DNA from: Octopus sinensis
Lineage: Eukaryota
Assembly (NCBI RefSeq): GCF_006345805.1
Contig: NW_021835380.1
Location: forward strand, 1-58,475
DNA length: 58,475 nucleotides
Direction: 5' to 3'
Shown here: positions 3,345 to 54,527 of the stretch, piece after piece
Numbering within the stretch: position 1 is the first letter of the stretch
Layout of the letters: each line of letters opens with the position of its first letter
The notes under the pieces: generated by a model
The model's database searches: none
Told to the model about the DNA's origin: nothing
The model's input: only the letters and a program-made list of their open reading frames with translations
Program-made: the position numbers and the translations under genes

Positions 3345-3647
3345 AAATTAATAGAGGTCACAAAGCGACAGAGGGTAGTGACTAGCACCAATTTTGCTAA
3401 GGATAAGAATTAAACTCAAAGCCACAAACGCACTGATTTAAGTGACTGACAAAGGGAGGCGTTAAGAGCCGCTGATGGTCTACATCGCAATCCGAAACCG
3501 CGATCCGGTTATGTACGCTGGGGACTTACCTCCCTTTGTCAATCACTTAATAGAGTGCACATGTGGCTTTGAGTTAGTTTAACTCTTGTCTTTAGCAAAA
3601 GCGGTGCTAGTAAGTACCCTTTGTCACTTTTGGTCTCTATTAATTTT
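3345..3647. repeat. Fold-back element: ~115 bp inverted arms (3345-3459 / 3529-3647) with a degenerate hammerhead-like spacer
   Basis: AAATTAATAGAG...GACAAAGGGAGG pairs with CCTCCCTTTGTC...CTCTATTAATTT; spacer has CTGATGG...GAAACCG..CGGT; flanked by CA/TA microsatellites. Confidence 0.85.
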
Positions 3648-3712
3648 GTTTTTACGTTCTAATTGCTAATTTTTAATTTGTGGCATATATATGTGTATGT
3701 ATATATATATAT

Positions 3713-3900
3713 ATCCTTTCTACTATAGGCACAAGGTCTGGATTTTGGAGGGAGGATAAGTCGATTACATTGACCCCAGTACTCAACTGGTATTTATTTT
3801 ATCAACCCCGAAAGGATGAAAGGCAAAGTCGACCTCGGTGACATTTGAACTCAGAACGTGAAGACTGCCGAAACTCCGCTAAGCCTTTCACCCGACGTGC
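3713..3900 (-). mobile_element. SINE family A (tail variant 2), 5'-truncated
   Basis: Shared core GTTCAAAT..GAGGTCGACTTTGCCTTTCATCCTTTCGGGG on the minus strand; tail CCTTGTGCCTATAGTAGAAAGG. Confidence 0.85.
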
Positions 3901-4077
3901 GTACTACGATTATATATATATATAATATATATAATATATATATATATATAAATATAGAAATATTAATTAGTGTATATAACCATGTTTATTAGCTATATAA
4001 CCAAGTTTTACATTAGATGATATCCTCGATGTAAATATTAGTAAGCCCTTCTTGTTTTATATATATATATATCGATT

Positions 4078-4149
<72 letters not shown>

Positions 4150-4152
<3 letters not shown>

Positions 4153-5040
4153 ATTATAAAAACGCAAACACATCCATTCAATGTTTTCAAGGAGCGGAAA
4201 AATTGGATTAGACTCCAGACAGATCGTTTGACAGGTTGTTGACCACTCCACGTAGAAGACGTACACCATTTCCTGCTCCAATGAGCAGTATAAAGCAGTC
4301 TGTAATTAACTCATTATTGTAATTTGGTCCTCTCACTTAGAAATTCGTGCTTTGCATGGCTAATTAAGCAATGTGTATTTTTATGCACAACACAACGTGA
4401 ATTGGTAGGACAGAATTAAAGCCGTTATCGTGATAAAAATGCGTAAAAAAAAGTGAACATATCGCTTCGATGATTTCAGTATGTTGCAAAAGAAGAACTC
4501 CTAGCAGCCTCTTTTGCAGTTTATCAACAAATCATTACCATTCTAACACTTTTTTGATTGTAAGATGTCGGTTTTTCGATGTTTGGTTCTTAACAACTTA
4601 GGCGACGTGCTTTTGTTCATTTTTGTGCAGCTAGAGCTAAACTTAGTTTTGTTCCTTTTTAATAGGTTATTTTATTTACAGTTGCCGAAAAGCATTTGGT
4701 GATTAATGTTAGAAAGCATTTTTTTGTCATTTCCTCTGGCGGTTGCAGAGTGGGTTAAACCAGGTGATGTTTCCTTATTAGCTTTTACTTATGTACCTTT
4801 GGTACGTATTCAAATTTTCTTTTCTTTTACACCACTTGATTTTTAAGACCAAAATAGAAGAACTTAAATTGTTTTCTAGAATATTTACGGAAACTTTTCG
4901 GATCATGTTACAGATTTGTTTGTTAGTTTTTGAAGGAGTGTGATCGAAATGCTTGCTTTCAGTGGTTATATTTAGCAGAATGTCGAGGAAATTATATTTT
5001 GTATAAGTTGCTGTAAAGTTGAATACGTTGAATATCAATA
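4150..5040 (-). mobile_element. Penelope-like (Neptune-type) element remnant: RT thumb/linker plus probable 3' pseudo-LTR
   Basis: Minus-strand peptides NFLDILLNITT..HTPS..KQICNMI and NITWFNP...CFLTLITKCF...RNKTKFSSSC match the PLE pattern RNIIWFNPP..FL.LI.KHF..NRNT.K.SYSC; ends in a (TA)n tract. Confidence 0.7.
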
Positions 5041-5100
5041 TTACATTACATATTTACATTATTTACATTCGACGGATATTTGTCATCTTGTTTGTTATTA

Positions 5101-5144
5101 ACACAACGTTTCGGTTGATATACCTTCTAGCCTTCTTCAGGTGT
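5101..5144 (-). ncRNA. Minimal type I hammerhead ribozyme motif
   Basis: Minus strand reads ACAC-CTGAAGA-(AGGCT..AACC)-GAAA-CG-TT-GTGT; stem I ACAC/GTGT; palindromic ACGT stem III. Confidence 0.65.
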
Positions 5145-5162
5145 CTTGGGGAAATTTCCCAC

Positions 5163-5277
5163 GGGCATATGGTGTAGTGGTTAAGAGCGCGGGCTACTAA
5201 CCCCAAGATTCCGAGTTCGATTCCAAGCAGTGACTTGAACAACAACAACAACATCAACAATAATAATAATAATAATA
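5163..5277 (+). mobile_element. Short tRNA-derived SINE/retropseudogene with (AAC)/(AAT)n tail
   Basis: A box TGGTGTAGTGG, B box GAGTTCGATTCC, simple-repeat tail, no intact acceptor stem. Confidence 0.75.
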
Positions 5278-5739
5278 GCTTATAAAACTTTAAAACTTTA
5301 TGGTTGAAGCCTGCGAATTCTTTCGATATTCTTTCGGAATTATTGAGATTTTCTGAATTGTTTTAGAAAAATTTTCTTCGAAGGGTTTTTGAAATTTGTG
5401 AAATTCACTAAACGCTAAAAATGTTTACATTAAGCAATTTTTCTTTTTCCTTTAAGCAATTGTTTCTTTATCCCATTGCTTGCCATGAGCCCTATTCGGT
5501 GATCTGCTAAAAACAGACTCTCTGCCGGTTGTTCATTATATTTTAAATGAATTGCTTATGTACAGTGCATTTGCAGAGGTGCATTTGCAGAGGTGCATTT
5601 AACAATATTTAGTAGTTAAAATTGTCATTATTAGCTCTGGATAATTCTAGAGAACATTCTAAGTCATAAATCGCAATTTTTGAACTACAAAAATATTGAC
5701 TGTTTTGAAGACTTTTTTATTTCATTCCCCATCTATATC

Positions 5740-5964
5740 TTATTTCTTTATTGCCCACAAGGGGTTAAACATAGAGGGGACAAACAAGGACAGCCAAAAG
5801 GATTAAGTCGATTACATTGACCCCAGTGCGTTACTGGTACAAAATTTATCGACCGTGAAAAGTAAAGTCGCCCTGGCGGAATTTGAACTCAGAACATGAA
5901 GACAGATGAAAAACTGCTAAGTATTTCGTCCGGTGTGCTAACGTTTCTGCCAGCTCACCACCTT
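5740..5964 (-). mobile_element. SINE family A, full length, with TSD
   Basis: Family-A head and core; flanked by ATTCCCCATC(T/C)ATATC direct repeats. Confidence 0.9.
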
Positions 5965-52392: not shown

Positions 52393-52590
52393 ATTACCTC
52401 AGCCTTAGAGAAGGCCGAGGTATTGTTTTCAGTCGTGCTTGTTTGTTTGTCCGTGGAAAAGATATCTCAAGAACTGCTGGATGGATTCGGATGAAACTTT
52501 CAGGGATGTTTGGCCTTGTGACTGGCACGGTCTCATTAGATTTCGGGATCGATCCGATACCGGACAAGGATCCTGGATTATTTTTCCAAT
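52393..52590 (-). mobile_element. Helentron-associated element 3' fragment (same family as 48040)
   Basis: Reverse complement of 48225-48392, including hairpin ACCTCAGCCTT..AAGGCCGAGGT. Confidence 0.7.
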
Positions 52591-53006
52591 TTTTTTTTTA
52601 CTTTACATGTATATGTAAAGTTTCACATAGTTCTCTTGTTCACGCACACACATACACACATATACCCACATAATTTCAGCATTGAACATTTACCATCCCA
52701 TTTCCATCGCACACACACACACACACACACACATACATACACGCAGCACGCAAACATACCTCTCTTTTAAACACACATGTACTCGCACTTCAAACGCCTT
52801 TTATCAGCTTTTTCACAGTTTCCTTCGTTATTCATCTCTCACCCCTTCCTTTCTCAATCATACGACGCTCTCTTTGCCACATCGTTTCGTTTTCCTCATT
52901 GTTATTACTTTCTCTCACTCCCTCTCAGTCATGGCTATTACCCTCACTACTTCTCCTTCACTGTATTAGCATTTCATCTCCCTTCCTTTCAAATCCCACT
53001 CTATAT

Positions 53007-53050
<44 letters not shown>

Positions 53051-53435
53051 AGTGAATGGAAGAAATGGAGTTGAACGAAGATTGTACAGATTCCTTTTAT
53101 TACATTCTACACATGTTTCAAAGGCCACAAATTTTTCTGCTGTGATTTTTGCTACCCAGGTATCGGTTAAACATTTGAATAATCTGTAACAAGAAAATTC
53201 ATCTTTCTATTTCAACAAATATATATATATTTTTTTTTTTAATAATATATTACTATTAAAATTAGGAAATCAATATCAAAACTCCTTAGAAAGATATACA
53301 CGTGTGAAAATAATTGTTGTATTAAAAATACATAAATAAACAAACATAAATATGTATAAAAATATATGTAATATGTATAAGTATAAATATATAATGTATA
53401 TGACAGTTTAAAAGTTTTGAATGAATCATTTAAAG

Positions 53436-53527
53436 CATCTTACGATCGTTTCACAGGAGAGTTGTCCCTATAATGAAATCCTATATTGATAAGCATTTAT
53501 AGACAACGCTTCTGCTCTTCAGAGATA
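53436..53527 (-). ncRNA. Type I hammerhead ribozyme, canonical core
   Basis: Minus strand reads TATCT-CTGAAGA-[GCAG..GTTGTC...GACAAC..CTGT]-GAAA-CGATCG-TA-AGATG; palindromic ACGATCGT stem III; GUA triplet. Confidence 0.82.
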
Positions 53528-53544
53528 TAAAATTTGAATTCATG

Positions 53545-53732
53545 TTGTCCCCCCAACATCGCTTGACAACCGATGGTGGTGCGTTTACGTCACCGTAACT
53601 TAGCGGTTCGGCAAAAGACACCGATAGAATAAGTACTAGGCTTACAAATAATAAGTCCTGGGGTCGATTTGCTCGATTAAGGGTGGTACTCCAGCATGGC
53701 CACAGTCAAATGACTAAACAAGTAAAAGAGTA
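53545..53732 (+). mobile_element. SINE family B 3' half
   Basis: TGTCCCCCAACATCGCTTGACAACCGAT..CAGCATGGCCACAGTCAAATGACT. Confidence 0.88.
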
Positions 53733-53751
53733 GACACATATATATATATAT

Positions 53752-53790
<39 letters not shown>

Positions 53791-53856
53791 GGTCCCGGGT
53801 TGATTCGGGGTTAACCACAGTAAATAAGGTACTCAATACATAGCAGAGTAAAATTA

Positions 53857-54115
53857 ATTTATTATATAGAAGGAGCTTCTACAGGACTAGAACTGTTTCA
53901 TTCAAGAGAAATCATCAGGAAGCTAGTTAACAAGAATTGTATTGGCATTTATACATTCAGGCAGGTTTAAAGGGGTGGTGGTGGGGGATTTTTTGGGGGT
54001 AGGCATAGCGCAAAAATATCATACTTGGGGAAGTGGTTTTTTTTGTGTGTATATGTATGTGTGGTCGTGTGTTTATATATGCATGTGTATGTGTATATGT
54101 ATATGCATATATATG

Positions 54116-54146
<31 letters not shown>

Positions 54147-54527
54147 GGTATGTATATATGTATATATATATGTATATATATATATGTGTGTGTGTGTGTA
54201 TGTGTTAGGTATATGTGTGTGTGTGTGTATATGTATACATATATGTTATATGTATAAGTGAGAATCTCCTTATTACCTAAACTCTATTCTTCTATATATT
54301 TTTATTCTTTTATTTATTCTTTTATCTAATTTACCACTGACTCCTTGACCACTCCCCCAAGTATGATATTTTTGCGCTATGCCTACCCCAAAAAGTCCCC
54401 CACCACCACCCCTTTAAACCTGCCTGAATGTATAAATGCCAATACAATTCTTGTTAACTAGCTTCCTGATGATTTCTCTTGAATGAAACAGTTCTAGTCC
54501 TGTAGAAGCTCCTTCTATATAATAAAT
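53857..54527. repeat. Fold-back element: ~180 bp near-identical inverted arms (53857-54037 / 54348-54527), each containing a hammerhead motif
   Basis: Arms are reverse complements with few differences; spacer is TA/TG microsatellite; (TA)n lies on both outer sides. Confidence 0.93.
54460..54510 (+). ncRNA. Hammerhead ribozyme motif (mirror copy on the minus strand at 53874-53924)
   Basis: AGCTTC-CTGATGA-T[TTC tctt GAA]T-GAAA-CAG(ttctagtc)CTG-TA-GAAGCT; stem II closes with a U.U mismatch. Confidence 0.75.

What the first reader, a model, noticed from the sequence alone, without database searches (positions are those of the whole stretch)
3345..54527. Recurrent class of microsatellite-embedded fold-back elements carrying hammerhead ribozymes
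Seen: at least five unrelated sequences share one architecture, two 115-180 bp inverted arms between (TA)/(CA) microsatellites (3345, 12097, 17161, 22157, 53857). Four of them contain or overlap a hammerhead-like motif, and stand-alone hammerheads occur at 5101, 16762 and 53436. Established: Penelope-like elements carry minimal type I hammerheads in their pseudo-LTRs and often leave inverted, truncated pLTR copies. Inference: these are many distinct PLE-derived, TA-microsatellite-targeting, ORF-less ribozyme elements at about one per 7 kb. They could be a large under-annotated self-cleaving RNA component of this genome, possibly mobilised in a retrozyme-like way. PLE RT remnants at 2350 and 4150 point to a plausible source of enzyme.
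Basis: partly seen in the sequence, partly recalled or inferred. Interest (0 to 1): 0.8.

Follow-up and report, generated by a model that had tools for sequence, protein, structure and literature searches.

The report
Ribozyme-bearing Penelope retroelement stumps and arrays
The fold-backs are short stumps of several Penelope-like jumping genes whose mirror-image arm differs in length from copy to copy and is likely built anew at each landing, but one neighbouring family is a 593-base gene-less repeat with a hammerhead ribozyme motif that likely borrows the Penelope enzyme.

Summary
The inverted arms and hammerhead (HHR) motifs are real: 5 intact motifs against 0.28 in shuffles. They are not one new element class.

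The families at 53857, 22157 and 12097, and the 5101 motif, run elsewhere in the genome into PLE RT/GIY-YIG ORFs (Hydra-, Neptune-, Poseidon-type by motif). Fold points differ between copies and a 'tail' sits on one arm only: the published PLE insertion structure, which this scan also noted in other genomes. The 12097 pair is probably two insertions. The window's HHRs at 3345 and 12097 are broken, 17161 lacks one, and the RT remnants at 2350/4150 are not significant.

The unusual part is 16524-17054: a young 593-bp ORF-less HHR unit. It forms head-to-tail arrays of up to about 8 units with PLE signatures (two fixed 3' ends, inverted 5' copy, TA targets) and array-private substitutions. 3345 belongs to a similar 336-bp unit. 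These look like PLE-mobilised retrozyme-like elements, a link proposed in print; my searches found no paper showing it.

Random sampling gives about one intact HHR per 20 kb, from about 40 sequence clusters seen so far. Cleavage, circular RNA and the partner enzyme are untested.

The parts
53784..54527 (.). Fold-back insertion of a Hydra-type PLE end: 69-bp tail (about 53788-53856) + inverted arm 53857-54037 + microsatellite-rich pLTR + arm 54348-54527
   Evidence: in L033 and L191 the same pLTR+tail runs straight into an RT/GIY-YIG ORF
53874..53924 (-). Type I HHR, intact core, helix I 6 bp, U.U-opened helix II, helix III 4 bp with 8-nt loop
   Evidence: found in 29 of 29 other family loci (L002-L030, some overlapping)
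54460..54510 (+). Same HHR in the other arm
22157..22800 (.). Fold-back insertion of a Neptune-type PLE end: inverted arm 22157-22297, forward pLTR about 22331-22743, tail 22744-22800
   Evidence: ORF-linked in L275, L364 (1120-codon open frame) and L365; weak RVT_1 hit E 2.4e-4 on L327
22581..22625 (+). HHR variant with C instead of A at core position 9, fixed in the family
12068..12236 (-). 3' end of a Neptune-type PLE family (HHR core CUGUUGA in the family, mutated here at 12154-12188)
   Evidence: (L137 has a YIDD RT and a GIY-YIG upstream)
13019..13164 (+). Second copy of the same family in opposite orientation, probably an independent insertion; HHR 13069-13104 mutated
   Evidence: arms 89% alike versus 92% among family copies; spacer holds another repeat
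17086..17489 (.). Fold-back of the last ~130 bp plus tail (17086-17160) of a family whose HHR-like motif lies just upstream of the part kept here; no HHR in this copy
   Evidence: ORF link not reached
3345..3671 (.). Fold-back copy of a 336-bp ORF-less tandem unit: inverted arm 3345-3459, forward part 3474-3671; HHR 3468-3509 damaged by a deletion
16524..17054 (+). Nearly one unit of a young 593-bp ORF-less HHR repeat (unit positions 374-590 + 1-316), ending at TA
16768..16865 (+). Type I HHR with long helix II and near-palindromic helix III; predicted cleavage after 16860
5051..5158 (-). 3' end of a Poseidon-type PLE with minimal HHR (5100-5145, helix II partly decayed)
5163..5234 (+). tRNA-like head (A- and B-box-like motifs) that belongs to the same element's 3' UTR, here inverted against the HHR part
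   Evidence: not called a tRNA by ARAGORN
53436..53527 (-). Intact type I HHR with palindromic helix III in a separate AT-rich family (element about 53215-53541); ORF link not reached

Best explanation
The fold-backs are 5'-truncated insertions of several Penelope-like retroelement (PLE) families whose inverted arm differs from copy to copy and is likely made during each insertion, and the 593-bp and 336-bp gene-less hammerhead repeats likely move by borrowing the same PLE enzyme. Shown by sequence: each family has two fixed 3' ends 55-105 bp apart (the tail); 5' ends and fold points vary; the tail is usually on one arm only; four families join an RT/GIY-YIG ORF elsewhere; two families join their own 5' part instead, giving direct tandem units with no ORF. 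Inferred from published PLE biochemistry: the GIY-YIG endonuclease nicks both strands of AT-rich DNA and the RT starts at either of two internal sites on the RNA. Extending both nicks would give two cDNAs, one with and one without the tail; joined head to head, they would give the fold-back. Inferred for the ORF-less units: a tandem or circular RNA presents the same two start sites to a PLE protein in trans, so copying runs round the unit and yields arrays. The HHRs would cleave as dimers through their palindromic helix III; this is untested.
For: ORF links: L033 = inverted pLTR+tail / pLTR / RT-linker-GIY-YIG / pLTR; L275, L364, L365; L137; L212. Tail on exactly one arm: 11 of 11 distinct 53857-family pairs; 14 of 14 22157-family pairs with both 3' ends in view (16 of 30 loci had both orientations); 14 of 16 17161-family loci (4 of those 16 were fetched because they were pairs). 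In the 53857 pairs the shorter arm measures 80, 113, 130, 141, 222, 236, 250, 285, 286 or at least 296 bp. 593-bp unit, 19 distinct insertions (L011 dropped as a duplicate of L279): 24 of 26 3' ends lie at unit position 312-325 (17) or 413-426 (7); 6 of 19 have an inverted 5' copy; 9 of 19 hold at least one full internal unit; all 19 abut a TA-type microsatellite on at least one side, 15 clearly on both. No ORF of 200 codons or more in five 8-10 kb stretches at or beside arrays. Units of one array share private substitutions, also in the inverted copy (L277: A228G, C332T, A479G, T522G; L280: G339A). Relatives at 70-80%, found by homology mostly outside the HHR, keep the core while helix I changes on both strands. 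Literature: PMC3846280, PMC8557442, PMC4209133, PMC11167929.
Against: No partner enzyme was identified for the ORF-less units. Their only match to an autonomous element is a nested fold-back cassette inside the Hydra-type 3' UTR. Array homogeneity could also come from local DNA duplication or from a uniform master array. No ORF was reached for the 17161 and 53436 families. Clade labels rest on motifs, not a tree, and Pfam recognised only one of the ORFs, below its cut-off. In 2 of 6 inverted 593-bp insertions and 1-2 of 16 17161 loci the one-arm tail rule fails. The 12097 pair does not fit a single event. In PMC11167929 the HHR was dispensable for insertion in vitro and needed protein to cleave.
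Confidence: 0.85

Rival explanations
1. The fold-backs are themselves ORF-less elements transcribed and mobilised as hairpin units.
For: Arms are long and sit in microsatellites. Some families are ORF-less.
Against: Fold points and arm lengths differ between copies in every family tabulated. Many copies have no inverted arm within the fetched flanks, and several families run into ORFs. The only repeated junction seen (L038/L039) is a local 739-bp duplication.
Confidence: 0.05
2. The 593-bp and 336-bp units are only the pLTR of an autonomous PLE whose ORF-bearing copies I did not sample; their tandem arrays are by-products of that element.
For: PLEs form partial tandems (PMC8557442). Only the best 40 of 804 and of 423 candidates were scored.
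Against: In autonomous families the tail continues into the 5' part of the element body (L033). Here it continues into the next HHR unit in all 9 arrays of the 593-bp family and in 8 of 12 loci examined for the 336-bp family. An older relative at 73% is also a tandem of about 590 bp (L280).
Confidence: 0.15
3. The 593-bp arrays spread at the DNA level (satellite-like duplication, or Helitron-like rolling), and the HHR is a passenger.
For: Arrays are homogeneous within a locus. The head-to-tail joint is also seen in contigs of a large run that is probably DNA.
Against: Arrays are dispersed on many chromosomes, 97-100% alike, with fixed 3' ends, variable 5' ends and inverted 5' copies: polarity typical of retrotransposition. 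HHR helices covary across relatives.
Confidence: 0.07

Closest known systems
EN+ Penelope-like element insertion unit: pLTR, adjacent inverted 5'-truncated copy, optional tail (Arkhipova 2013 PMC3846280; Craig 2021 PMC8557442)
   Same: [quoted passage not shown]
   Different: Tails here are 55-105 bp rather than 30-40 bp; at least six such families sit in one 58-kb window.
Minimal type I HHRs of metazoan PLEs (Cervera and de la Pena 2014, PMC4209133)
   Same: HHR in the pLTR, extra base after A9, palindromic helix III, many families per genome. That paper already reports dual HHRs 100-700 bp apart on opposite strands and ascribes single motifs to truncated PLEs.
   Different: Many motifs here have an 8-nt palindromic helix III and a helix II of 40-85 nt. 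Two families have fixed core changes (U at 6, C at 9). The extrapolated count (about 1e5) is far above the 2,000-9,000 per genome given there, with a different descriptor.
Hydra clade PLEs (Craig 2021)
   Same: RW[K/R], DKT, CxCX5C linker, no CCHH, CxxC and CxH around the conserved E/N, HHR, (TA)n insertion: all seen in the 53857 parent.
   Different: Long microsatellite-filled 3' UTR, so the unit exceeds 3 kb; no tree was built.
Non-autonomous Chlamys elements such as MRC1 (Craig 2021)
   Same: [quoted passage not shown]
   Different: Those are algal, belong to a clade mostly without HHRs, and share 3' ends with known autonomous partners. Here the units carry an HHR and no partner is yet matched.
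Metazoan non-LTR retrozymes (Cervera and de la Pena 2020, PMC7229834)
   Same: ORF-less tandem repeats with one type I HHR per unit; PLEs proposed as the mobilising enzyme.
   Different: Units there are about 170-400 nt and are shown to make circular RNA. The 593-bp unit is larger, its HHR is PLE-like, expression is unshown, and it displays PLE tail and inversion signatures, which the sections I read do not report.

Membership tests
EN+ Penelope-like elements | ORF with RT and C-terminal GIY-YIG endonuclease | tested here: met
   By motifs for the parents of 53857, 22157, 12097 and 5101; Pfam support is weak (RVT_1 E 2.4e-4 on L327 only)
EN+ Penelope-like elements | pLTRs flanking the ORF with an inverted 5' copy | tested here: met
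   L033, L275
EN+ Penelope-like elements | Optional tail on one end (two fixed 3' ends) | tested here: met
EN+ Penelope-like elements | Type I HHR in the pLTR | tested here: met
   weak helix I in the 17161 family (8 pattern matches in 28 loci)
EN+ Penelope-like elements | RT phylogeny with named PLEs | not tested
   No named reference PLE proteins were fetched; the 120 listed homologues carry no useful names
EN+ Penelope-like elements (17161 and 53436 families) | Link to an ORF | tested here: inconclusive
   Shared upstream sequence followed for about 750 bp and about 320-600 bp without reaching an ORF or a tandem junction
Hydra clade (53857 parent) | RWK, DKT, CxCX5C linker, no CCHH, CxxC/CxH | tested here: met
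   RWR, DKT, CNCPDKTTC, CDLC, CMH in L033/L193 against the definition; RW[KR] in 112, DKT in 108 and CxCx4-6C in 115 of 120 homologues
Hydra clade (53857 parent) | Short (<3 kb) element | tested here: not met
   The ORF is about 2.2 kb but the 3' UTR is swollen by microsatellites and a nested insertion; the paper says 'generally' short
Neptune clade (22157 and 12097 parents) | CX2-5CxxC linker before a CCHH-type GIY-YIG | tested here: met
   CTDKYCTVC in L275 and CPHCCTC in L137; Nematis not excluded without a tree
Non-autonomous PLE (593-bp and 336-bp units) | No ORF, PLE-type ends and tandem insertion | tested here: met
Non-autonomous PLE (593-bp and 336-bp units) | 3' end shared with an autonomous partner | tested here: inconclusive
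   No partner among fetched loci; only a nested cassette in the Hydra-type 3' UTR
Metazoan retrozyme | Tandem ORF-less repeats with one type I HHR per unit | tested here: met
   L277, L280, L281
Metazoan retrozyme | Unit of about 170-400 nt | tested here: not met
   593 bp for the main family; met by the 336-bp family
Metazoan retrozyme | Self-cleavage and abundant circular RNA | not testable with these tools
   Only assembled contigs of runs not on record as RNA were available
MITE / DNA transposon | Fixed-length TIRs identical among copies, fixed TSD | tested here: not met
   Arm lengths vary and many copies are one-armed in the fetched flanks; TSDs are unreadable in TA runs

The most novel reading that the evidence does not exclude
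The 593-bp unit is an active animal retrozyme driven by a Penelope-like enzyme: its RNA self-cleaves as a dimer, circularises, and is reverse-transcribed round and round by a PLE RT that starts at two fixed sites. That would explain arrays of up to 8 identical-haplotype units with a PLE tail and an inverted 5' copy. It would be genomic proof of the proposed PLE-retrozyme link, in a genome holding on the order of 100,000 hammerheads from dozens of families.
Probability: 0.35. Interest if true: 0.72.

Novelty: new variant of a known kind. Interest (0 to 1): 0.45.

Why it matters
The headline fold-back architecture is ordinary PLE biology and needs no new class. What would matter is the ORF-less units. 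Which enzyme moves animal retrozymes is stated as open, with PLEs as candidates (PMC7229834 discussion, PMC7761336 passages). Here a young, abundant ORF-less hammerhead repeat carries the tail and inversion signature described as unique to PLEs (PMC11167929). That gives a concrete substrate for cleavage, circularisation and trans-mobilisation tests. The measured density (about one intact motif per 20 kb) and fixed core variants in young families also offer natural material on whether PLE hammerheads must be catalytic.

Tried and rejected
Rfam scan of the window: swamped by microsatellite hits to miRNA models, no hammerhead in the 150 rows shown of 390; none in 3 loci. A first strict HHR descriptor found only the two 53857 motifs and was relaxed. 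Pfam and PDB sequence searches did not recognise the PLE ORFs, apart from one sub-threshold RVT_1 hit.

The RT remnants at 2350 and 4150 were tested by tblastn, HMM and Pfam without significant support. A DNA search with 2345-2960 found only 4 short weak matches elsewhere. The 5101 HHR is not joined to the 4150 remnant in any other copy scored.

Expression: no RNA holder listed. Contigs of three runs guessed to be RNA and of one large run cover the 593-bp unit and show the head-to-tail joint, but the joint exists in DNA, and contigs show no ends or strand. This is not used as evidence.

A partner search for the ORF-less units among about 330 fetched loci found none. Whether 5' ends avoid the HHR cleavage site cannot be judged, because the query spanned the HHR. 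Unconstrained MFE folding of one HHR formed helix II but not the monomer active fold, as expected for a dimer-type motif.

Lunse 2017 (PMC5785218) is not held, so whether the U6 and C9 core variants are in print is unchecked. Dfam/Repbase comparison was not possible. The Zenodo repeat library of PMC13282606 could not be seen and may already contain these families.

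
Full report
**Observation.** The window is a whole 58-kb contig of a 2.72-Gb animal genome. Its SINE content looks octopus-like to me from recall, which no call verified. All five inverted-arm structures exist. A type I HHR descriptor finds five intact motifs at +16773, +54466, -53918, -53522 and -5140, against 0.28 in 100 shuffles. 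Because the descriptor was relaxed after seeing the window, I tested it on 40 evenly picked 10-kb stretches of chromosomes. It gave 20 hits in 16 of 40 stretches, against a shuffle mean of 2.2 and a maximum of 6. That is one hit per 20 kb, or about 1e5 genome-wide by extrapolation from only 20 hits. Across all 323 loci then held (1.4 Mb, overlapping, enriched by my searches), 235 hits fell into 41 clusters, a few probably chance. Most have a palindromic helix III. The window copies at 3345 and 12097 are damaged, 22157 has a variant core, and 17161 has none. The RT remnants at 2350 and 4150 show suggestive words by eye but no significant match.

**53857 family** (1947 first-look candidates, 40 scored, 98% alike). 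In L033 the order is inverted pLTR with tail, pLTR, RT, linker, GIY-YIG, pLTR. The 69-bp tail of the window element is the start of the ORF region. The protein has RWR, DKT, a CxCX5C linker, no CCHH, and CxxC/CxH: the Hydra-clade definition (PMC8557442 section 11). Open frames of 650-690 codons exist. In 11 of 11 distinct fold-back pairs exactly one arm has the tail, and the shorter arm ranges from 80 to at least 296 bp.

**Other ORF-linked families.** The 22157 family runs into a Neptune-type ORF (L275, L364, L365), with 8748 first-look candidates for its C-terminal part. Sixteen of 30 loci show both orientations, the fold points vary, and the tail is on one arm in all 14 where both 3' ends are visible. 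The 12097 family runs into a YIDD RT and a GIY-YIG in L137, and a GIY-YIG remnant in L141. Its window arms are 89% alike, less than the 92% among family copies. The spacer holds another repeat, and only one of 29 other loci has an inverted partner, so two insertions are more likely. The 5101 motif belongs to the 3' UTR of a Poseidon-type element (L212, L209, L151). The 17161 family shows the same tail-and-fold pattern (14 of 16 loci) and an HHR-like motif upstream, but neither it nor the 53436 family was traced to an ORF.

**ORF-less units.** The 16762 HHR lies in a 593-bp unit (804 candidates, the best 40 at 99%). Its six frames have no stop-free stretch of 70 codons. It forms head-to-tail arrays, the longest seen about 8 units plus an inverted copy, with no ORF of 200 codons in five stretches of 8-10 kb at or beside arrays. 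Among 19 distinct insertions (20 rows, one duplicate dropped), 17 of 26 3' ends lie at unit position 312-325 and 7 at 413-426. The 5' ends are scattered, 6 have an inverted 5' copy (tail on one arm in 4), and all touch TA-type microsatellite. Units within an array, including the inverted copy, share private substitutions. That is expected from repeated copying of one template, but also from local duplication. Relatives at 70-80% identity keep the core while helix I and helix III change with pairing mostly kept, and one is itself a tandem. The 3345 family is a comparable, older 336-bp unit whose tail leads into the next unit in 8 of 12 loci examined, chosen for having several hits. No autonomous partner was found.

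**Mechanism.** Frangieh 2024 (PMC11167929, parts 1-2 of 4 read) showed that a Poseidon protein nicks and extends both strands of AT-rich DNA and starts reverse transcription at two internal RNA sites that bound the tail. In that system the HHR is protein-assisted and dispensable in vitro. Two cDNAs primed on opposite strands, one from each start site, both 5'-truncated and joined head to head, would explain one-arm tails and locus-specific folds. This last step is my inference. ORF-less units presenting the same two sites could be copied in trans, from a circle or a multimer.

**Comparison.** Inverted pLTR plus tail is in PMC3846280 (passages) and PMC8557442 (passages and section 11; one supplement search). 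Opposite-strand HHR pairs 100-700 bp apart and widespread solo motifs from truncated PLEs are in PMC4209133 (parts 1-2 of 4). Non-autonomous head-to-tail PLEs are described for Chlamydomonas. Animal retrozymes and the hypothesis that PLEs move them are in PMC7229834 (passages and sections 14, 17), PMC7761336 and PMC11722881 (passages). PMC13282606 (parts 1-2 of 3) counts 31 recently active PLE families in an octopus; hammerheads do not appear in the parts read. PMC6962438 (passages) lists 235 Rfam hammerheads in a squid. PMC3088659 (passages) reports low activity for an A6C change. Searches found no paper showing PLE insertion signatures on an ORF-less HHR tandem repeat in an animal. The library lacks most subscription journals, and Repbase/Dfam were not available. 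Earlier notes of this scan reached the same reading of fold-backs in other genomes; none exist for this genome.

**Verdict.** A sub-finding, young ORF-less HHR tandem units with PLE signatures, is a new variant worth testing. Interest 0.45.

Noticed in passing
window 5051-5234; L334-L363; L212, L151: The Poseidon-type 3' UTR holds a tRNA-like head right after the ORF. 26 of 30 copies with a full head start within -19..+15 of its first base (by eye 27), and one full copy checked has no T4 run. This could be a ~290-bp Pol III-transcribed, HHR-bearing SINE moved by a PLE, or an RT stop at the palindrome before the head. About 2,900 first-look candidates. Not TA-restricted.
   Followed up: partly
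window 22581-22625 and 12154-12188: Family-wide HHR core variants: C at position 9 (46 of 46 matches in a young ORF-encoding family) and U at position 6 (16 of 23 readable copies); activity unknown.
   Followed up: partly
L033 3443-3612 and other Hydra-type copies: A mini fold-back from the 593-bp lineage is nested in the Hydra-type element's 3' UTR and travels with it.
   Followed up: partly
L187, L190, L194: A second, very young Hydra-type family with open frames of about 727 codons and an HHR in both pLTRs; not represented in the window.
   Followed up: partly
L364 3764-7123: The 22157 parent ORF has a long asparagine-rich N-terminal part, recalling the N-rich inserts of rotifer Penelopes in PMC3846280.
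   Followed up: no
window 12283-12520 and 13636-13900: Another dispersed repeat with a decayed HHR-like core on the minus strand near 13737; present in several other loci.
   Followed up: no
window 28077-31232, 51241-51582, 57190-57585: A common SINE occurs as 184-bp tandem partial copies and as inverted pairs; it dominates the long inverted-repeat list.
   Followed up: no
window 8490-8660: Weak match (E about 0.004, 2 of 120 queries) to the C-terminus of Hydra-type proteins.
   Followed up: no
window 19222-19460, 35632-35810, 52261-52339, 51734-52242: Further imperfect palindromes or short terminal inverted repeats, probably DNA-transposon derived.
   Followed up: no
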